Positions 1 through 4,176 of a stretch of 32,000 bases of DNA are shown here, one piece after another. The stretch lies in contig NZ_JAGIOS010000003.1 of NCBI RefSeq assembly GCF_017876815.1, positions 870,001 to 902,000 on the forward strand. The letters are read 5' to 3'. A model generated the notes under the pieces. The model saw nothing but the letters and a program-made list of their open reading frames with translations, searched no databases and was not told the DNA's origin. Every line of letters starts with the position of its first letter. Within the stretch, counting starts at the first letter, position 1. The position numbers and the translations under genes are program-made. The stretch is from Sinorhizobium meliloti (GTDB taxonomy: Bacteria; Pseudomonadota; Alphaproteobacteria; Rhizobiales; Rhizobiaceae).

Positions 1-16
1 ATCCTTCGGAAGTTCA

Positions 17-43
17 GCCCCGCGCCAGCGGGGCCTTTTTATT
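17..43 (+). terminator. Rho-independent terminator of a + strand gene lying upstream of the window
   Basis: Hairpin GCCCCGC-GCCA-GCGGGGC (17-34) is followed directly by CTTTTTATT. Confidence 0.7.
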
Positions 44-115
44 GTCCATAACCGACACTTCCTCCAGTTAAACTGTGACGGTCGCTTTGGGCCAGGTCCG
101 GGACGAGGCTGGCCT

Positions 116-140
116 GCAACAATTCAGTAGAGGATACGTT
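116..140 (+). promoter_or_regulatory. EcfG/RpoE2-like promoter pattern with one mismatch (GCAAC-N16-CGTT)
   Basis: GCAAC at 116-120, a 16-nt spacer, then CGTT at 137-140. It sits 27-33 nt upstream of the small ORF start at 168/174. The consensus GGAAC-N16/17-CGTT is quoted from knowledge of alphaproteobacterial general stress promoters. Confidence 0.35.
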
Positions 141-173
141 TCTTCACCAGGGGTGCACAAAAGGAGGATGGCG

Positions 174-269
174 ATGCGTCCTGCCGAACGCGTCAAGATT
201 ATAGAATGGATTTCATCCATAGCGGCTGTTGGATTGCTGGCATTGCTAGTAAATGCGGTGCTGGGTTGA
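174..269 (+). CDS. Small single-TM peptide (31 aa, or 33 aa from ATG 168): MRPAERVKIIEWISSIAAVGLLALLVNAVLG
   Basis: Strong SD AAGGAGG at 161-167, 6 nt before ATG 174. The C-terminal about 20 residues are hydrophobic. The ORF sits inside the longer 75..269 track ORF, whose N-terminal part looks non-coding. Confidence 0.45.
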   Translation: MRPAERVKIIEWISSIAAVGLLALLVNAVLG

Positions 270-1035
270 TTGAAGCTTCGCTTTTCATTGCCGACCTGGC
301 GCTCGCGAATGAGCTCCACGCGCAGGCACCGCGCTAGGTCGAGGCCCCCTAAAAAAAGACCGCCAACGAGGTTCCACGGGCGGTCATCGCGGCCAGCTTT
401 AAAGCTCTGATCCTGCGCGCTCCTTTGCCTCTCCAGTCGTAATCCATCTGGTCACCTTGGCGGTGAGATTGGCCGCCTCGGCGGCCTCCAGCCGCCTTCG
501 TGTGAGCGCCAGCCCCAGGCGAGGCCAGCCGCCAGAAGCGCCCGACCTCTAACCGCCTCTCCTCGTACGAGACGGCTGAAAGAACTTACCGCCTAACCCC
601 TGCTCAGGGCCATTAGCCCATCCGTCGTAATCCCGCCACTCAGGCACAATCAGGAGAAATCGATGGCGTACGGCCCCAAGCAGTCTCAGAGGTGTTTCGC
701 CGACATGCACGAGCGTGAAGGGCACGCTGAAGTGCGATTCCGCAGCTTCCGCAAGATCGATAGTATGGTCTAGCGCATCACAGTCACCGAGCAGTCGTCG
801 ACGAATACGGCGTTTCGATCAAGGACCGCGGACGCTTCTCAGACAACAGGTGATCTAAAAGTTACGCGGGAAATCTTCCGGCTCATAGAAGGCGGCACAT
901 GCGGCGAAATTGTAAAGGCAGCGCCCGCGGCGAGGCAGGGCCTGCCTGCTCAGGTCGGCTCCAGCAGTTGGAGGGGACGTTTTAAGAAGCCGACATGAGT
1001 TCGCGCTGAGCATCGCAACTCGCTAGCGACCGCGC

Positions 1036-1311
1036 CTAACTCCTCAGTTTCCACATCGTTCCGAAGAATTCCGGTTCGGTCCACCACCTCGTGGGCGCGG
1101 GGCTGCCGTCGTCTGCGCCGGCTGGGTCTTCGTCATCGGGCAGCCAGCCCTGCCAGCCATTTCCCAGCGCATCCTGCGCCTGCTGCCCGTCGAGGCGGCT
1201 GGCCAACTGCTGGAGCAGCTGGCGCTCCGAAATGCCGCTCTCCGGCGCTAGGTACGCGGCTATGTCCCTCTGGTAATCCCGAATCAGCTTTCTCATCTTT
1301 TCTGAACTCAT
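1036..1311 (-). CDS. Hypothetical protein (about 91 aa) with an acidic, Trp-containing C-terminus
   Basis: Track ORF 1036..1323. ATG at 1311 is preferred because the SD AAGGGAG lies 11 nt upstream. Composition is balanced and protein-like. No family recognised. Confidence 0.45.
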   Translation of the reverse strand: MSSEKMRKLIRDYQRDIAAYLAPESGISERQLLQQLASRLDGQQAQDALGNGWQGWLPDDEDPAGADDGSPAPTRWWTEPEFFGTMWKLRS

Positions 1312-1330
1312 TTCGGTGACCACTCCCTTT

Positions 1331-1359
1331 GAACAGCAAACCCCGCGGCTGTGGCGGGG
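1331..1359 (-). terminator. Candidate intrinsic terminator read on the minus strand
   Basis: Stem CCCCGC/GCGGGG (1341-1346 / 1354-1359). On the minus strand it is followed by TTTGCTGTTC. A second perfect 9-bp stem GTTCTGTCC/GGACAGAAC lies at 1363-1395. Could end the transcript of the small ORF at 1524-1604. Confidence 0.4.
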
Positions 1360-1523
1360 CTTGTTCTGTCCGGGACAGCCCGTTCAGGACAGAACATGAT
1401 ACTCCGGGCTGTCGTACTTCAATGCACAACTTGCTGGAGTAACGTTGGTTCCGCACCTAACTCTTAAGGATTATCGACGTTTGACGCTTCGAAGAGGCCG
1501 GCGTCCGCTGCCCGACCGGCTCC

Positions 1524-1604
1524 TCAGACTACGAGCCAAGCCAGGACGAACAGCGCAATGATAACGAGGAGGATCATGATACCAGCGACGTTGAGCGAGT
1601 GCAT
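1524..1604 (-). CDS. Small hydrophobic peptide (26 aa): MHSLNVAGIMILLVIIALFVLAWLVV
   Basis: ATG with AGAGG 8 nt upstream. Almost the whole ORF is one TM-like helix. Below the 60-aa cutoff of the supplied track. Translated by hand from the reverse complement. Confidence 0.45.
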   Translation of the reverse strand: MHSLNVAGIMILLVIIALFVLAWLVV

Positions 1605-1630
1605 ACGGCCTGCCTCTGTCTTTGCAAGTG

Positions 1631-1655
1631 AACCTTGCAGGCGACGGTATGTTCC
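1631..1655 (-). promoter_or_regulatory. EcfG/RpoE2-like promoter pattern with one mismatch (GGAAC-N16-GGTT on the minus strand)
   Basis: The plus strand reads AACC(1631-1634)-N16-GTTCC(1651-1655). The motif ends 26 nt upstream of the ATG at 1604. Confidence 0.35.
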
Positions 1656-1872
1656 GCATGGAGACTTCAAAGGCCCTGCAAAGTCACCAAGGGCCGGCCA
1701 AAAATGCGAGTGCCCGGGTGCGGGTCGACACGGCCACTGCTAACAGGTTTGGGGACCTGATTGCCGATTGGCTCGGCATGATAGGAATCCGCTGGACGCC
1801 GAGGCTGCCTTCGCGTGACGCAGGAACATTCTCGCGGCAATCTGCCTGTAAACTTGGCGCGCCGGAGGCGGC

Positions 1873-2283
1873 GTGGTCGGCCTTCTAACGGGGCTCGAGC
1901 TAATGGCAATCCTCGGAGTTGGGCCTGTGGTGGCCGCCGGATGGCTTGCGGCAACCGCCGCCGGTGCTGTAGCGGGCGCGGTGGCCGGCGGCGCGGCCGG
2001 AGGTTTGATCGGTGCGCTGACCGATTCCGGAGTCGATGAAGAGGATGCCCATGTCTTCGCCAAGGGCGTTCGGCGCGGAGGCACTTTCGTGACAGCAAGG
2101 GTGGACGACACTCTTGCGCCTGAAGCACAAGCAATACTGCAGGACCTGAACCGCTTTGACCCTGCCGCGCGGTGGGGCGTCTTTGCGCAAGAAGAATGGA
2201 CGCGTTTTGACGAAAATGCCGACCCTTACACGCTCGAAGCGGTACCGCTCTATGATACCGTAACGGCATCGAAAGATTGGTGA
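1873..2283 (+). CDS. Glycine-zipper membrane / general-stress-type protein, probably an N-terminally decayed copy
   Basis: GVGPVVAAGWLAATAAGAVAGAVAGGAAGGLIGALTDSGVDEEDAHVFAKGVRRGGTFVTARVDD matches, from memory, the conserved core of alphaproteobacterial stress proteins that also carry a YflT/GsiB-like N-terminal domain. GTG 1873 has GGAGG 4 nt upstream; ATG 1903 is an alternative start. Two in-frame stops lie just upstream (see findings). Confidence 0.6.
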   Translation: MVGLLTGLELMAILGVGPVVAAGWLAATAAGAVAGAVAGGAAGGLIGALTDSGVDEEDAHVFAKGVRRGGTFVTARVDDTLAPEAQAILQDLNRFDPAARWGVFAQEEWTRFDENADPYTLEAVPLYDTVTASKDW

Positions 2284-2328
2284 CGGCGCCGATGGGCGCC
2301 TTCACCGATGTCTCACCGGAAGCTCCAT

Positions 2329-2353
2329 GGAACCAACCTCCCTGCGGAACGTT
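2329..2353 (+). promoter_or_regulatory. Exact EcfG/RpoE2-type general stress promoter motif GGAAC-N16-CGTT
   Basis: GGAAC at 2329-2333, a 16-nt spacer, then CGTT at 2350-2353. It lies 52 nt upstream of the ATG at 2406. This was the only exact instance found in a by-eye scan of both strands. Confidence 0.55.
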
Positions 2354-2405
2354 GCCGTAGCACCCGTGCAGAGCGATGCAGACGGCGGGACTGGAGGAGG
2401 TCCAG

Positions 2406-2489
2406 ATGGATATCACCACGCTTTTAATTATTGTTCTTATCGTTCTCCTCCTAGGTGGCGGCTGGTACGGCCGAGGACGCTGGTATTAA
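2406..2489 (+). CDS. Small membrane peptide (27 aa): MDITTLLIIVLIVLLLGGGWYGRGRWY
   Basis: SD GGAGGAGG at 2393-2400, 5 nt before the ATG. A hydrophobic helix is followed by a Gly/Arg/Trp tail. It resembles short DUF3309-like stress-locus peptides of alphaproteobacteria (from memory, unverified). Not in the ORF track because it is under 60 aa. Confidence 0.6.
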   Translation: MDITTLLIIVLIVLLLGGGWYGRGRWY

Positions 2490-2658
2490 TCGGAACCTGA
2501 AGGGCCCGGTCTACCGTGGTGGCCAGGAACTCCGACGTCGAATATTCGTCTGGCAGTGCCCGGCAAATCAACAGCATTGGAGCCGACCGGCGGTTTGTGA
2601 CGGCGGGCAATCCGCTCCGGGCGAGGCGCGCTCACGAAGCGCCGCGGCACCAACGAAG

Positions 2659-3780
2659 TTAGCCCCCCTGGCGCGGTCCCGAACGCTGATCTCGCCCCGT
2701 TGAAGAGGACGGAGGTTGTCTTCGCTCTTCAAGCTCCGCCGCGATCCACTCGCGAAATAGGCTGTAGGCAACCGCCAGCAGCGTGGGCCCGAGGAAAAGG
2801 CCGATGAGGCCGAAGGCCAGGACGCCACCGATTAAACCGAAGAGCCCCAGCAAAACGGGTAAGTTGGTATTTCTCCCGAGGAGATACGGTCTCAGGAAAT
2901 TGTCGATACTGCTAACAAGAAGTAGGCCCCAAATCGCGACGAAGATGCCCCACCAGACTGATTCCTGCATGAAAAGCCACAGCGCGACAGGTCCCCATAC
3001 AAAGGGAGGCCCCGCCGGCACGAACGACAGAACAAATGTCAGGCATCCGAGCAACAACGCCTGGGGCACACCGGCGATCCAGAAACCTACGCCGGCCAGG
3101 AGGCCTTGGGCCAGGGCTGTGCCGATGAGGCCATAAACAACGCCCGTCACTGTCACTCCAACCACGCTAAGCAATCTTCGAGCGCGGGCTCCCGCCACCC
3201 GTTCCGCGATCTGACGGGTAAGGGCAGTCATGCGCCGCCCGTGCAAGAATAAGAAAAAGCCGATGAAGATACTTAACGCGAGTTCGAGAAGACCGGCGCC
3301 AAACAGCGTTCCCCCAATCAGAGCGACATCGGCGAAAGGGCCGATCACCTTCTTCAGCTCGATGGTGAAGGCCGGCGCGTTGTGTGCCAAGCCCTCCCAA
3401 TAAGTAGCCAAGCCCTCACCGGCGATGGGTAGCCCCCTCACCCAATCCGGCGGCGCCGGCGGGCCCTGTTCGAGGACATTGGTGACCCCTGCCACCAAGC
3501 TACTGATATTGTCCGCGAGTGTCGTTGCCAGCAATGCAAGCGGTGCGACGATGACAACGACGACCAGCACTGTCATGGCGGCCGCGGCGAGTGCCCGATA
3601 GCCGCCGACGGCTCGCTCAAACAATCTGTAGGCGGGCCATGTCGAGAAACATATCACAGCCGCCCACAGAATGGCGGATAGGAAGGGCCAAAGCACTAGG
3701 GTACAGCCGATCGCCAGCAAACCCAGTGCGCCGAACGCAAGAAGTTGCCCAATCAGTTTGCCCTGTGTAACCATCGACAT
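2659..3780 (-). CDS. AI-2E family transporter (PerM/UPF0118-type permease)
   Basis: 373 aa, polytopic. The C-terminal signature SSIDNFLRPYLLGRNTNLPVLLGLFGLIGGVLAFGLIGLFLGP is typical of the family. Confidence 0.9.
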   Translation of the reverse strand: MSMVTQGKLIGQLLAFGALGLLAIGCTLVLWPFLSAILWAAVICFSTWPAYRLFERAVGGYRALAAAAMTVLVVVVIVAPLALLATTLADNISSLVAGVTNVLEQGPPAPPDWVRGLPIAGEGLATYWEGLAHNAPAFTIELKKVIGPFADVALIGGTLFGAGLLELALSIFIGFFLFLHGRRMTALTRQIAERVAGARARRLLSVVGVTVTGVVYGLIGTALAQGLLAGVGFWIAGVPQALLLGCLTFVLSFVPAGPPFVWGPVALWLFMQESVWWGIFVAIWGLLLVSSIDNFLRPYLLGRNTNLPVLLGLFGLIGGVLAFGLIGLFLGPTLLAVAYSLFREWIAAELEERRQPPSSSTGRDQRSGPRQGG

Positions 3781-4176
3781 TGCTCATGTTGCGCACCCTA
3801 CCCGCACAATGCGGAAATGACGGCCGAGTTTCCACCTAGAAACGGCACACTTTTGGGAGGTCCTTGAAGCTAATGCGTTTACCGCGAACTGTCGAGCAAC
3901 ACAAAGTCACCAACGAGATCACCCCCTTTAAGTGGGGCATTCGTCCCAAAGGAAAACAATAAACCCGCGATTGTTGCCGCAGCTTCGCTTTCGGTACTCT
4001 CTACACGTTTAGCACAGAGCTCGACCGATCCCGAAACGCCCCAGACCTTATGCATCGTGCCCTCGAAACCAAGCTGGTTAAGAGTCTTCGAAGCTTGTGT
4101 TAAGGACCTACGCGAAATCCAGGACAATGCCGCGGTGTTCGATATCGCCACGCTTGGCGATCGCAGCTGACCGGCG

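What the first reader, a model, noticed from the sequence alone, without database searches (positions are those of the whole stretch)
116..2489. Three unannotated hydrophobic micro-ORFs, each with an SD and a general-stress (EcfG/RpoE2-type) promoter pattern
All three ORFs fall below the 60-aa cutoff of the supplied track, and each encodes essentially one TM helix:
- A, 174-269 (+): MRPAERVKIIEWISSIAAVGLLALLVNAVLG, SD AAGGAGG.
- B, 1524-1604 (-): MHSLNVAGIMILLVIIALFVLAWLVV, SD AGAGG.
- C, 2406-2489 (+): MDITTLLIIVLIVLLLGGGWYGRGRWY, SD GGAGGAGG.

Each is preceded, 26-52 nt upstream of its ATG and on the correct strand, by the alphaproteobacterial EcfG/RpoE2 pattern GGAAC-N16-CGTT:
- exact at 2329-2353 for C
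- GCAAC-N16-CGTT at 116-140 for A
- GGAAC-N16-GGTT at 1655-1631 for B

The exact motif has 9 fixed bases, so about 0.25 chance hits are expected in 2 x 32 kb. Single-mismatch hits are common window-wide, but not at the right distance and strand before three independently predicted ORFs.

The three ORFs flank a glycine-zipper stress-type gene (1873-2283). This looks like a small general-stress islet of membrane micropeptides. Such genes are routinely missed by annotation and their function is unknown; stress-induced membrane modulators or type-I-toxin-like peptides are both conceivable.
Basis: partly seen in the sequence, partly recalled or inferred. Interest (0 to 1): 0.7.

Follow-up and report, generated by a model that had tools for sequence, protein, structure and literature searches.

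The report
Stress-promoter micropeptide genes on pSymA
Three tiny membrane-peptide genes sit among general-stress promoters on a Sinorhizobium meliloti megaplasmid; one 27-residue peptide belongs to a large, unnamed, strongly conserved family that standard annotation misses or mis-starts, so this is a solid but unsurprising addition to a known stress regulon.

Summary
The window is S. meliloti pSymA (SMa0447–SMa0450 region).

- **Screen and matrix.** An objective screen (ATG, SD, 18–60 aa, hydrophobic helix) finds exactly these three ORFs in 32 kb. A matrix built from 57 TSS-validated RpoE2 promoters ranks the C and B sites first and second in the window (17.7 and 16.3 bits). The A site is marginal (12.7).
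- **C (27 aa) is real.** It has about 1,900 database representatives. Conservation starts exactly at Met-Asp. dN/dS is 0.04–0.16. An EcfG-type promoter of at least 14.4 bits lies 46–87 nt upstream in 10 of 13 independent loci.
- **A (31 aa) is coding.** dN/dS is 0.08–0.13, in its own frame only. Its promoter assignment is weak: the spacer is N15 in some strains, and the published TSS is at 72, not 147.
- **B (26 aa) is probable only.** Its promoter is conserved, but S. medicae truncates it and a published antisense TSS overlaps it.

Published TSS and array data for strain 1021 show none of the three predicted starts. The gene SMa0448 shows no stress promoter. Function is unknown. Verdict: new members of a known kind.

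The parts
2329..2354 (+). EcfG/RpoE2-type promoter of micropeptide gene C (GGAACCA-N13-ACGTTG). The predicted TSS is about 2361–2363.
   Evidence: It is the best matrix hit in the window at 17.7 bits. It is invariant in diverged Sinorhizobium orthologues. Equivalent sites of at least 14.4 bits lie upstream of 9 further independent homologues. No TSS is reported here for strain 1021.
2393..2400 (+). Shine-Dalgarno site GGAGGAGG of C, 5 nt before the ATG.
   Evidence: Read directly from the sequence. A GGAG/GAGG core is kept in all homologues; it shows up as 'EE' in the mis-started protein calls.
2406..2489 (+). Gene C: the 27-aa single-helix peptide MDITTLLIIVLIVLLLGGGWYGRGRWY.
   Evidence: The family has 102 clusters and 1,865 representatives. 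Conservation begins exactly at Met-Asp, and the N-terminal extensions are unrelated. dN/dS is 0.04–0.16 with third-position bias. It has no Pfam or NCBIfam family.
1630..1655 (-). EcfG/RpoE2-type promoter upstream of B (GGAACAT-N13-AGGTTC). The predicted TSS is about 1621–1623 (−).
   Evidence: It is the second-best matrix hit at 16.3 bits. GGAAC and GGTT are invariant in S. medicae and in a diverged S. meliloti strain, while the flank further upstream is full of substitutions and indels. No TSS is reported.
1524..1604 (-). ORF B: the 26-aa hydrophobic peptide MHSLNVAGIMILLVIIALFVLAWLVV. It is probably a gene, but this is not proven.
   Evidence: SD and ATG are conserved, and there are no indels in the ORF. 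It is restricted to S. meliloti, S. medicae and one metagenome relative. S. medicae has TGG→TAG at codon 23. dN/dS is 0.23–0.35 and not significant.
1470..1566 (+). Published transcript SMa_sRNA_31 (TSS at 1470). It runs antisense to the 3' half of ORF B. It may instead be a long leader of SMa0448.
   Evidence: Schlüter et al. 2013, Table S2: SMa_TSS0635 at 240838 (−) in NC_003037, mapped through L083. No terminator follows on the + strand.
116..141 (+). Weak EcfG-like motif upstream of A (GCAACAA-N13-ACGTTT).
   Evidence: It scores 12.7 bits, the minimum of the validated range. Both boxes are conserved, but the spacing is N15 in CCNWSX0020-type strains. It is kept in L115 although 49 nt just upstream are deleted. 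No TSS is reported at about 147.
161..167 (+). Shine-Dalgarno site AAGGAGG of A, 6 nt before the ATG.
   Evidence: Read from the sequence. It is invariant in all relatives.
174..269 (+). Gene A: the 31-aa peptide MRPAERVKIIEWISSIAAVGLLALLVNAVLG, with a charged N-terminus and one helix.
   Evidence: dN/dS is 0.125 (P=0.0017) against L115 and 0.083 (P=0.0019) for L115 against L120. The other five frames give a dN/dS of 0.32–4.6, none significant. Length is kept at 31 aa in six variants. Indels flank the ORF but never enter it.
72..169 (+). Published sense transcript SMa_sRNA_34 (TSS at 72), covering the leader of A.
   Evidence: SMa_TSS0640 at 242239 (−) in NC_003037. This position is deleted in L115 and not conserved in L120.
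1427..1452 (-). Experimentally validated RpoE2 promoter of SMa0450 (GGAACCA-N13-AAGTTG). The TSS is at 1418/1419 (−).
   Evidence: Schlüter et al. 2013, Table S19: SMa0450, signal log ratio 3.3, promoter 240856–240881, TSS 240889, class RpoE2. It scores 15.8 bits with a matrix trained without it.
1036..1323 (-). SMa0450, a 95-aa rpoE2-dependent protein of unknown function. B lies upstream of it on the same strand.
   Evidence: It has no Pfam family. Its leader carries a terminator-like hairpin at 1359–1341.
1037..1062 (-). A further RpoE2-type motif inside the 3' end of SMa0450.
   Evidence: It scores 14.2 bits and is conserved in relatives. The intergenic region downstream is rpoE2-dependent on arrays, log ratio 2.28. 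That region is non-coding in relatives.
1873..2283 (+). SMa0448, a 136-aa glycine-rich membrane protein that lies between B and C. It is a neighbour and is not shown to belong to the stress regulon.
   Evidence: It has only sub-threshold family hits. No RpoE2-type motif lies upstream here or in 69 homologous loci. It is not in the rpoE2-dependent gene list.

Best explanation
**What it is.** The first 2.5 kb of the window lies in the SMa0447–SMa0450 region of megaplasmid pSymA of Sinorhizobium meliloti. It is part of a cluster of promoters for RpoE2, the EcfG-type sigma factor of the alphaproteobacterial general stress response. Three very small genes, each encoding one membrane helix, sit inside this cluster.

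**How it is switched on.** This part is established knowledge for S. meliloti (Sauviac 2007 and Bastiat 2010, as summarised in PMC3616915). Stress leads to phosphorylation of RsiB1/2. These capture the anti-sigma factors RsiA1/2, which frees RpoE2. RpoE2 initiates 5–11 nt downstream of GGAAC-N16/17-(C/G/A)GTT.

**What I infer happens here.** Short mRNAs with strong Shine-Dalgarno sites are made. They are translated into peptides of 26–31 residues that insert into the inner membrane.

**Gene C (27 aa).**
- It is a member of a large unnamed family.
- By the positive-inside rule it is predicted to place its acidic N-terminus outside.
- Its invariant GGG-W/F-Y-G-R-G-R-W-Y tail is predicted to lie at the cytoplasmic interface.
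- I think it most likely acts as a stress-induced accessory or modulator of a membrane protein or of the bilayer, not as a toxin.

**Gene A (31 aa).**
- It is restricted to S. meliloti and close relatives, and it is a genuine coding gene.
- It has a charged N-terminus (predicted inside) and one helix.
- Its transcription may come from the weak GCAAC-type motif, from the mapped TSS at 72, or from read-through of the upstream csbD gene.

**ORF B (26 aa).**
- It is probably translated from an RpoE2-dependent transcript that starts about 18 nt upstream.
- That transcript runs on towards SMa0450.

**Shown versus inferred.**
- Shown: the sequence features, coding constraint for C and A, conservation of the promoters of C and B, and validation of the neighbouring SMa0450 promoter.
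- Inferred: RpoE2 dependence of A, B and C themselves, their translation, membrane insertion, topology and role.
For: **Identity of the region.**
- The window is 100% identical to pSymA of strains SM11 and RU11/001, and 99.2% identical to strain 1021.
- In SM11-type strains a csbD gene lies just to the left. A 17.0-bit RpoE2-type site and a CGAAC-type site flank that gene.

**Promoters.** The matrix was built from 57 TSS-validated RpoE2 promoters.
- C scores 17.7, B 16.3, validated SMa0450 15.8, the site at 1062–1037 14.2, and A 12.7.
- 1.5 sites above 14 bits are expected per 32 kb.
- GGTT, AGTT and other variants of the −10 box occur among validated promoters.

**Blind screen.** Only A, B and C pass in 32 kb. 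In 637 kb of control loci 13 ORFs pass, and 5 of them also carry an RpoE2-type site of at least 12.5 bits. Hydrophobic micro-ORFs behind such promoters therefore recur.

**Gene C.**
- There are 102 homologous clusters with an invariant core, and their N-terminal extensions are unrelated.
- There are 1,865 representatives with E ≤ 1e-3. In all but one of the 150 listed the match runs to within three residues of the C-terminus of the called protein.
- dN/dS is 0.04–0.16. Binomial P reaches 6e-6 and is 0.009 or below against the five more distant homologues.
- A site of at least 14.4 bits lies 46–87 nt upstream in 10 of 13 independent loci. The background 99th percentile is 12.5 bits.
- Neighbours are typical stress-island genes: HWE histidine kinases with response regulators, and DUF2267, PRC and BON genes.

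**Gene A.**
- dN/dS is 0.08–0.13 in the predicted frame only.
- The SD is invariant, the length is kept, and indels stay outside the ORF.
- Sense transcription has been mapped upstream of it.

**ORF B.**
- The promoter, SD and ATG are invariant across about 12% divergence.
- There are no indels in the ORF.

**RNA structure.** The predicted mRNAs of B and C fold no better than shuffled sequence, with z of −0.03 and +1.07. This fits plain mRNAs, not structured RNAs.
Against: **Published TSS map of strain 1021.**
- It pooled many stress conditions, yet lists no TSS at the three predicted positions.
- Consecutive TSS identifiers leave no gap for one.

**Published arrays.**
- The rpoE2-overexpression arrays carried tiled intergenic probes.
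- They do not list the SMa0447–SMa0448 or SMa0448–SMa0450 intergenic regions as induced.

**Ribosome profiling.**
- The supplements of the S. meliloti ribosome-profiling paper that are held as text contain none of the three peptides or their coordinates.
- I could not confirm the growth condition. If stress was not applied, this weighs little.

**A's motif.** It sits at the bottom of the validated score range and has N15 spacing in some strains.

**B's weaknesses.**
- It has a premature stop in S. medicae, and its substitution pattern is not significant.
- A mapped antisense transcript overlaps it.

**Direct evidence.** No protein-level evidence exists for any of the three peptides.
Confidence: 0.7

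Rival explanations
1. B is not a gene. The conserved RpoE2-type promoter at 1655–1630 is a distal second promoter, or drives a long leader or small RNA, for the downstream rpoE2-dependent gene SMa0450. On this view the hydrophobic ORF is incidental.
For: - SMa0450 lies on the same strand and is validated as rpoE2-dependent.
- No convincing terminator lies between B and the hairpin at 1359–1341.
- B is truncated in S. medicae, and its dN/dS is not significant.
- The first 38 nt of the ORF are identical even at synonymous sites, which hints at nucleotide-level constraint.
Against: - B is one of only three ORFs in 32 kb that pass a blind SD + ATG + helix screen, and it sits 26 nt behind a 16.3-bit site.
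- SD and ATG are invariant, and the ORF has no indels while its flanks do.
- The transcript shows no unusual RNA structure.
Confidence: 0.3
2. B and the antisense transcript that starts at 1470 (+) form a type-I toxin–antitoxin-like pair. The toxin mRNA would be induced by the general stress response and held in check by a constitutive antisense RNA.
For: - B is very hydrophobic and 26 aa long, without charged residues. From my own knowledge this resembles Ibs and ShoB.
- A mapped antisense TSS overlaps the 3' half of the ORF.
- B has a narrow, patchy distribution.
Against: - The antisense RNA has no terminator. It may simply be the 403-nt leader of SMa0448.
- The predicted leader of B is only about 18 nt and is unstructured. 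From my own knowledge, type-I toxin mRNAs typically have long, structured leaders.
- Toxicity is untested.
Confidence: 0.12
3. A is a real gene but is not an RpoE2 target. It would be expressed from the mapped TSS at 72, or by read-through from csbD, and the GCAAC…CGTT match would be fortuitous or serve another factor.
For: - The published TSS is at 72, with none near 147.
- The motif scores 12.7 bits, the minimum of the validated range.
- The spacing is N15 in L120–L122.
- In SM11-type strains csbD lies directly upstream on the same strand.
Against: - Both boxes (GCAACAAT and ACGTTTCTTCAC) are conserved, while the spacer and the sequence upstream vary.
- The TSS-72 position itself is deleted in L115.
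- GCAAC occurs in a published predicted RpoE2 promoter, that of SmelA018, and upstream of the R. giardinii homologue of C.
Confidence: 0.45
4. All three ORFs and motifs are chance features of GC-rich intergenic DNA.
For: The consensus string alone is not enriched in the window.
Against: - Purifying selection acts on C and A.
- The C family is very large.
- The C promoter is conserved across genera.
- The blind screen returns only these three ORFs, and each has a site of at least 12.7 bits upstream, against a background 99th percentile of 12.5.
Confidence: 0.02

Closest known systems
Small, previously unannotated ORFs of the S. meliloti RpoE2 regulon (for example SMa_ORF_5; Schlüter et al. 2013, PMC3616915; Sallet et al. 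2013, PMC3738161)
   Same: - Same organism and same sigma factor.
- Same promoter architecture: GGAAC-N16/17-xGTT, 5–11 nt before the TSS.
- Short genes of unknown function found in intergenic regions.
- The neighbouring gene SMa0450 is a validated member.
   Different: - A, B and C are much shorter (26–31 aa).
- They have no reported TSS and no reported rpoE2-dependent array signal.
- Their case rests on comparative sequence evidence obtained here.
Pfam DUF3309 (PF11752), roughly 50-aa membrane proteins of unknown function
   Same: The C family has a hydrophobic stretch followed by a Gly- and aromatic/Arg-rich motif that aligns to profile positions 2–26. Ten of 26 family members give sub-threshold hits, the best at E=8e-4.
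   Different: - C is half the length.
- All hits fall below the gathering score of 22.3 bits.
- The window's own peptide gives no hit at all.
- DUF3309 itself has no known function.
Stress-induced small inner-membrane proteins of enterobacteria (such as MgtS, AcrZ, KdpF, PmrR; from my own knowledge, Hemm/Storz work)
   Same: - Single helix and fewer than 50 aa.
- Induced by a stress regulon.
- Missed by annotation.
- They act by binding larger membrane proteins. I favour this mode of action for C.
   Different: - There is no sequence relationship.
- No partner has been identified here.
- The sigma factor and the phylum differ.
- The analogy is functional only and is untested.
Type-I toxins (Ibs, ShoB, Ldr, TisB; from my own knowledge)
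   Same: Short hydrophobic peptides. For B, an overlapping antisense transcript has been mapped.
   Different: - C is far too broadly and strictly conserved, and no antisense RNA is reported for it.
- The predicted leaders are short and unstructured.
- Toxicity is untested.

Membership tests
Direct RpoE2/EcfG regulon member | A promoter that matches validated RpoE2 promoters (GGAAC-N16/17-xGTT) within their score range. | tested here: met
   The matrix came from 57 validated promoters. C scores 17.7, B 16.3 and A 12.7, against a training range of 12.6–21.3 and a median of 16.6. A is only marginal, and its spacing is N15 in some strains.
Direct RpoE2/EcfG regulon member | A transcription start 5–11 nt downstream of the −10 element. 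| tested here: not met
   The published TSS table for strain 1021 has no TSS at window positions of about 147 (+), 1622 (−) or 2362 (+). The nearest are at 72 (+), 1470 (+, antisense) and 1983 (+). That map covers only about 45% of genes, so this is absence of evidence. The second TSS data set (Sallet 2013, Table S10) is not held.
Direct RpoE2/EcfG regulon member | Transcript abundance depends on rpoE2. | tested here: not met
   The rpoE2-overexpression array tables list SMa0450 and the SMa0450–SMa0451 intergenic region. They do not list SMa0447–SMa0448 or SMa0448–SMa0450. Short transcripts may be under-sampled by tiled probes, so the result is weak.
Direct RpoE2/EcfG regulon member | The promoter is conserved upstream of orthologues and paralogues. 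| tested here: met
   - C: 10 of 13 independent loci have a site of at least 14.4 bits at 46–87 nt. The more distant relatives, probably from outside the Alphaproteobacteria, lack it.
- B: conserved in S. medicae at 16.3 bits.
- A: the boxes are conserved but the spacing varies.
Protein-coding small gene | Purifying selection in the predicted frame, with length kept and no frame-breaking indels. | tested here: met
   - C: dN/dS 0.04–0.16.
- A: dN/dS 0.08–0.13, in this frame only.
- B: inconclusive, with dN/dS 0.23–0.35 (not significant) and a premature stop in S. medicae.
Protein-coding small gene | Direct evidence of translation (ribosome profiling, mass spectrometry or tagging). | tested here: inconclusive
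   The peptides and their coordinates are absent from the held supplements of the S. meliloti ribosome-profiling and proteogenomics paper. Stress conditions were probably not sampled there.
Pfam DUF3309 (PF11752) | Score at or above the Pfam gathering threshold (22.3 bits) over the roughly 50-residue profile. | tested here: not met
   The window's C peptide gives no hit. A diverged relative scores 17.9 bits over profile positions 2–26. Ten of 26 members hit only below threshold.
Type-I toxin–antitoxin system | A small hydrophobic toxin ORF with an overlapping antisense RNA. | tested here: inconclusive
   - B: a published antisense TSS at 1470 (+) overlaps its 3' half, but that transcript may be the leader of SMa0448.
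- A and C: no antisense TSS is reported.
Type-I toxin–antitoxin system | The peptide is toxic when overexpressed. | not testable with these tools
   This needs an experiment.

The most novel reading that the evidence does not exclude
The C-family peptide (MD-x-TT…GGG-W/F-YGRGRWY) may be a conserved effector of the alphaproteobacterial general stress response that works as a dedicated micropeptide partner of a larger membrane or signalling protein.

**Candidate partners from gene neighbourhood.**
- AI-2E-family transporters. They lie next to C in three independent contexts, involving two different transporter subfamilies.
- HWE/HisKA_2 histidine kinases, the class of kinase that controls this stress response. 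They lie next to C in three contexts.

If the kinase link were real, it would be a micropeptide feedback on stress signalling, comparable in logic to MgrB acting on PhoQ.
Probability: 0.1. Interest if true: 0.7.

Novelty: new member of a known kind. Interest (0 to 1): 0.5.

Why it matters
[quoted passage not shown] Most of its target genes have no known function, and genes of 26–31 codons fall outside the arrays, gene finders and proteomics used to define the regulon.
- **What this analysis adds.**
  - It shows that at least two of the three micro-ORFs are under coding constraint.
  - It defines a large, unnamed 27-residue family, currently called with random wrong starts or not at all, that carries a conserved EcfG promoter in rhizobia.
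  - It suggests that hydrophobic micropeptides are a recurrent class of stress-regulon members.
- **Practical use.** It gives precise, cheap experiments: three predicted TSSs, three start codons, and candidate partners for C.
- **Limit.** It does not overturn anything. Small stress-induced membrane proteins and unannotated RpoE2 targets are already known phenomena.

Tried and rejected
**Family and RNA searches.**
- Pfam and NCBIfam scans of A, B and C found no family.
- An Rfam scan of the whole window found nothing.

**Synteny route.**
- I fetched 80 loci around SMa0448 homologues.
- tblastn with A, B and C found no syntenic homologues outside S. meliloti.
- Two apparent B hits (LFVFAWLVV in L003 and L050) turned out to be the N-terminus of an unrelated larger protein. 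I rejected them.

- The search for homologous proteins and the search for related loci refuse queries as short as these.
- I worked around this with in-frame upstream extensions and with an alignment.

**Literature.**
- The ribosome-profiling paper's supplements gave no hit by sequence, locus tag or coordinate.
- The supplements of Sallet 2013, including the RpoE2 TSS table S10, are not held.
- Sauviac 2007 is not held.
- Lang 2018 mentions none of these genes.
- No paper contains the GRGRWY motif in this context.

**Paralogue in strain 1021.** I looked for a C paralogue in 1021 that might have published TSS data. The pSymB-type paralogue (P0088) is absent from 1021.

**Ideas considered and rejected.**
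- SMa0448 as a stress gene: it has no motif in 69 loci.
- The 52-aa ORF at 855–1013 (−), downstream of the 1062 motif, as a fourth small gene: its ATG is lost and it has indels in relatives.
- A structured-RNA function for the B and C transcripts: their folding z-scores are about 0 and +1.
- A conserved pairing between the SD and the ORF in C mRNA: it is seen in the window's fold, but the sequence is not kept in homologues.

Full report
**Where the window comes from**

Bases 1–4000 are 100% identical to megaplasmid pSymA of Sinorhizobium meliloti SM11 and RU11/001. They are 99.2% identical to pSymA of the reference strain 1021, at NC_003037.1 239708–242289 on the opposite strand.

In 1021 nomenclature:
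- The 373-aa AI-2E-family transporter at 2659–3780 (−) is SMa0447.
- The 136-aa glycine-rich protein at 1873–2283 (+) is SMa0448.
- The 95-aa protein at 1036–1323 (−) is SMa0450.

In SM11-type strains a csbD gene ends just left of base 1. Its terminator is the hairpin at 17–34. Strain 1021 lacks csbD at this place. The two annotated GenBank pSymA records I inspected do not list any of the three micro-ORFs.

**Checking the observation**

The consensus string on its own is not significant:
- GGAAC-N15–17-CGTT occurs once, against 0.87 expected.
- With up to one mismatch at N16 there are 11 matches against 8.2 expected. Eight of the 11 lie in the first 3.2 kb.

I made two stronger tests.

*Matrix test.*
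- I took 57 RpoE2 promoters with mapped TSSs from Table S19 of Schlüter et al. 2013, leaving out the one that lies in this window, and built a position matrix.
- On the window, the four best sites all lie between 1037 and 2354:
  - C promoter: 17.7 bits.
  - B promoter: 16.3 bits.
  - Validated SMa0450 promoter: 15.8 bits.
  - Site at 1062–1037 (−): 14.2 bits.
- Random sequence gives 1.5 sites above 14 bits per 32 kb on both strands.
- The A site scores 12.7, equal to the weakest validated promoter. The training range is 12.6–21.3, with a median of 16.6.
- The table also shows that GGTT and AGTT are common −10 variants among real promoters, so B's 'mismatch' is not a defect.

*Blind screen.*
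- The criteria were an ATG start, an SD core 5–15 nt upstream, a length of 18–60 aa, and a 15-residue window with mean hydropathy of at least 2.2.
- It returns exactly three ORFs in the entire window on both strands: A, B and C.
- In 637 kb of independent rhizobial loci the same screen returns only 13.

The word 'unannotated' needs qualifying:
- The SM11 GenBank record calls C as a 37-aa protein (SM11_pC0338).
- It calls B as a 48-aa protein (SM11_pC0341), with an upstream start.
- AK83 and other records call A as 31 aa (Sinme_5286).

**Gene C**

A search with C plus 15 in-frame upstream residues found 102 protein clusters.

Conservation pattern:
- The 27-residue core MD-[ITL]-TT-LLIIVLIVLLL-GGG-[WF]-YGRGRW-[YF] is nearly invariant.
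- Everything N-terminal of the Met-Asp is unrelated in sequence and length. Gene callers have evidently extended a too-short gene to reach their minimum length.
- The only recurrent upstream feature is 'EE', which is the SD GGAGGA read in frame.
- A profile search of 1.84 billion representatives finds 1,865 with E ≤ 1e-3 and 864 with E ≤ 1e-10. In all but one of the 150 listed the match runs to within three residues of the C-terminus.

Coding constraint:
- Against seven homologues, synonymous sites are close to saturation (pS up to 0.67), while pN is 0.02–0.13.
- dN/dS is 0.04–0.16, with differences concentrated at third positions. P reaches 6e-6.

C is a protein-coding gene under strong purifying selection.

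**The promoter of C is conserved**

In 13 independent loci that carry the close family, I scored the 200 nt upstream.

| Locus | Best matrix score (bits) |
|---|---|
| Mesorhizobium sp. AR10 (L087) | 18.1 |
| Rhizobiales isolate (L088) | 17.9 |
| This window | 17.7 |
| L125 | 17.5 |
| Second S. meliloti paralogue (L118) | 16.8 |
| L127 | 16.7 |
| L119 | 15.5 |
| L113 | 15.4 |
| Third paralogue (L123) | 14.6 |
| L128 | 14.4 |
| Rhizobium giardinii (L084, GCAAC variant) | 10.4 |
| L100 | 9.5 |
| L126 (context rich in TctC genes, probably not alphaproteobacterial) | −4.0 |

- The sites end 46–87 nt before the ATG.
- The 99th percentile for random 200-nt windows of the same loci is 12.5 bits.
- A more distant subfamily from peat and soil metagenomes (MDTNT…GGFGWYGRGRWY) lacks the motif, with best scores of −4.7 to 0.8 bits. 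This would fit an origin outside the Alphaproteobacteria, to which the EcfG system is confined; I did not determine their taxonomy.
- Neighbours of C homologues are typical stress-island genes:
  - PAS–HWE histidine kinases with response regulators (L087, L088, L092).
  - DUF2267, PRC and BON genes (L123).
  - AI-2E transporters (this window, L088, L128).

This is strong comparative evidence that C is transcribed by the EcfG-type sigma factor.

**Gene A**

A is restricted to S. meliloti and a close relative found in metagenomes.

Coding constraint:
- Against the 88%-identical relative L115, the ORF carries 13 substitutions. Eight of them are at third positions.
- dN/dS is 0.125 (P=0.0017). The other five frames give 0.32–4.6.
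- L115 against L120 gives 0.083 (P=0.0019).
- All six known variants keep 31 residues, and the first 14 are almost invariant.
- Indels surround the ORF but never enter it: a 49-nt deletion upstream, one nucleotide in the motif spacer, and 15 and 2 nt just downstream.

A is a coding gene.

The promoter assignment is much weaker:
- The site scores only 12.7 bits.
- Its spacing drops to N15 in CCNWSX0020-type strains.
- The only mapped 5' end is at 72 (SMa_sRNA_34), not at about 147.

In its favour:
- The two boxes GCAACAAT and ACGTTTCTTCAC are conserved, while the spacer and the region upstream are not.
- The TSS-72 position is itself deleted in L115.

**ORF B**

B occurs only in S. meliloti, S. 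medicae and L115.

In favour of B:
- Across about 12% divergence, the stretch from GGAAC through GGTT, the SD, the ATG and the first 13 codons is invariant. The 60 nt further upstream are riddled with substitutions and indels.
- The S. medicae site still scores 16.3 bits.

Against B:
- S. medicae has TGG→TAG at codon 23, which leaves 22 residues.
- The few substitutions give a dN/dS of 0.23–0.35, without significance.
- A published TSS at 1470 (+), SMa_sRNA_31, gives a transcript antisense to the 3' half of B. No terminator follows it, so it may be the long leader of SMa0448.

I conclude that an RpoE2-type promoter here is likely real, and that translation of B is probable but unproven. The transcript may equally serve as a distal promoter for SMa0450, which lies downstream on the same strand.

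**What published experiments say**

Schlüter et al. 2013 validate SMa0450 as rpoE2-dependent. The signal log ratio is 3.3, the promoter is GGAACCA-N13-AAGTTG at window 1452–1427 (−), and the TSS is at 1418/1419.

Their TSS list has no entry at the three predicted starts. Their array tables flag only the SMa0450–SMa0451 intergenic region. This counts against the interpretation, but only weakly:
- The map covers about 45% of genes.
- The predicted transcripts are very short.

The second genome-wide data set (Sallet et al. 2013) screened for exactly this motif upstream of 5' ends and found 108 units, including 26 putative ncRNAs. Its table is not available to me. The ribosome-profiling study lists none of the three peptides.

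**How it most likely works**

*Established.* Stress frees RpoE2 from RsiA1/2 through phosphorylated RsiB1/2 (PMC3616915).

*Inferred for this region.*
- RpoE2 starts transcription about 8 nt after each −10 box.
- The leaders are short (about 18–45 nt) and unstructured, with folding z-scores of about 0 and +1. They carry strong SD sites.
- The products are single helices.

*Predicted topology, by the positive-inside rule.*
- C places Met-Asp outside and the GRGRWY tail inside.
- A places its charged N-terminus inside.
- B has no charged residue.

*Likely role.* For C, the strict conservation of GGG-W/F-YGRGRWY argues for a specific interaction, not generic toxicity. I favour a role as a stress-induced accessory or modulator of a membrane protein or of the interface, at about 50%.

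**Comparison with what is known**

The closest known cases are:
- The small unannotated RpoE2 targets already reported in S. meliloti.
- Functionally, the enterobacterial small stress membrane proteins.

By sequence the nearest family is Pfam DUF3309:
- A diverged relative scores 17.9 bits against the first half of the profile.
- Ten of 26 members hit below threshold.
- The window's own peptide does not hit at all.

C is therefore not a member of DUF3309.

**Verdict**

- C is a solid new micropeptide family with a conserved general-stress promoter.
- A is a real gene with an uncertain promoter.
- B is probable.
- SMa0448 is not shown to be a stress gene.
- Novelty: new members of a known kind.
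- Interest: moderate, 0.5.

Noticed in passing
window 1300-1452 (-): The validated RpoE2 promoter of SMa0450 (1452–1427, TSS 1418/1419) is followed by a 95-nt leader. This leader holds a strong terminator-like hairpin (1359–1341, then UUUGCUGUU) immediately before the SD. It matches the published short 'SmelA021 cis-encoded mRNA leader', which suggests attenuation or premature termination. Folding z-score is −2.7.
   Followed up: partly
window 690-1062 (-): A fourth RpoE2-type site (14.2 bits, 1062–1037) lies inside the 3' end of SMa0450 and is conserved in relatives. The intergenic region downstream is rpoE2-dependent on published arrays (log ratio 2.28). The 52-aa ORF there (855–1013) loses its ATG and has indels in relatives. 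A block of about 70 nt (roughly 945–1015) is well conserved, so this is probably a 3' UTR or a small RNA.
   Followed up: partly
L018 7829(+), L030 3516(-), L039 1274(-), L056 5067(-), L063 1656(-): Two other hydrophobic micro-ORF families sit behind RpoE2-type sites of 12.6–17.3 bits. One is MGRGILLWLLGIPLPIVILLVLFLR in Shinella, the other MNSIIYLVGLVVVVLFILSLLGLR in Agrobacterium. They account for 5 of the 13 micro-ORFs found in 637 kb of control loci. Neither is in Pfam. Membrane micropeptides look like a recurrent class of EcfG targets.
   Followed up: partly
window 2406-3780; L088 2534-5117; L128 2621-4284: The C-family gene lies next to an AI-2E-family transporter in three independent contexts. 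L088 carries an orthologue of SMa0447 (78% identity). L128 carries a distant paralogue (24% identity). HWE histidine kinase and response regulator pairs adjoin C in L087 and L088, and an HWE kinase gene lies about 1.8 kb upstream in L092.
   Followed up: partly
window 917-1511: This stretch (SMa0450, its promoter and its leader) has a paralogue of about 88–90% identity on pSymB in many strains. The duplication ends just before ORF B.
   Followed up: no
window 1470 (+), 1381 (+), 899 (+), 878 (-), 1983 (+): Published TSSs of strain 1021 show dense sense and antisense transcription here.
- SMa_sRNA_31 runs antisense to B.
- asRNA_141 runs antisense to the SMa0450 leader.
- sRNA_32 and sRNA_33 form a divergent pair.
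- There is also an internal TSS in SMa0448.

No TSS upstream of SMa0448 itself is reported other than the one at 1470.
   Followed up: partly
L081 1134-1240 (just left of the window in SM11-type strains): A 17.0-bit RpoE2-type site points at an 86-aa hypothetical gene. A CGAAC-N16-AGTT site (12.5 bits) lies 45 nt before csbD. The stress-promoter cluster therefore extends beyond the window's left end. Strain 1021 lacks this csbD copy.
   Followed up: partly
window 2393-2400 and 2444-2452: In the predicted fold of C mRNA, the SD GGAGGAGG pairs with CUCCUCC inside the ORF (the Leu codons). The complementary sequence is not kept in homologues, so this is probably incidental.
   Followed up: partly
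hits H15/H16 (CP140942.1, CP140953.1), matching window 1-4000: In two S. meliloti strains the region is interrupted by an IS5-like ISRm4-3 element. I did not determine the insertion point relative to the micro-ORFs.
   Followed up: no
P0088 / L123 2001-2171: A C paralogue in some S. meliloti strains, next to DUF2267, PRC and BON genes, has lost its stop codon and reads on to 56 aa. It also carries a Tyr→Cys change (GGGWCGRGRWY…). It may be a decaying copy.
   Followed up: no
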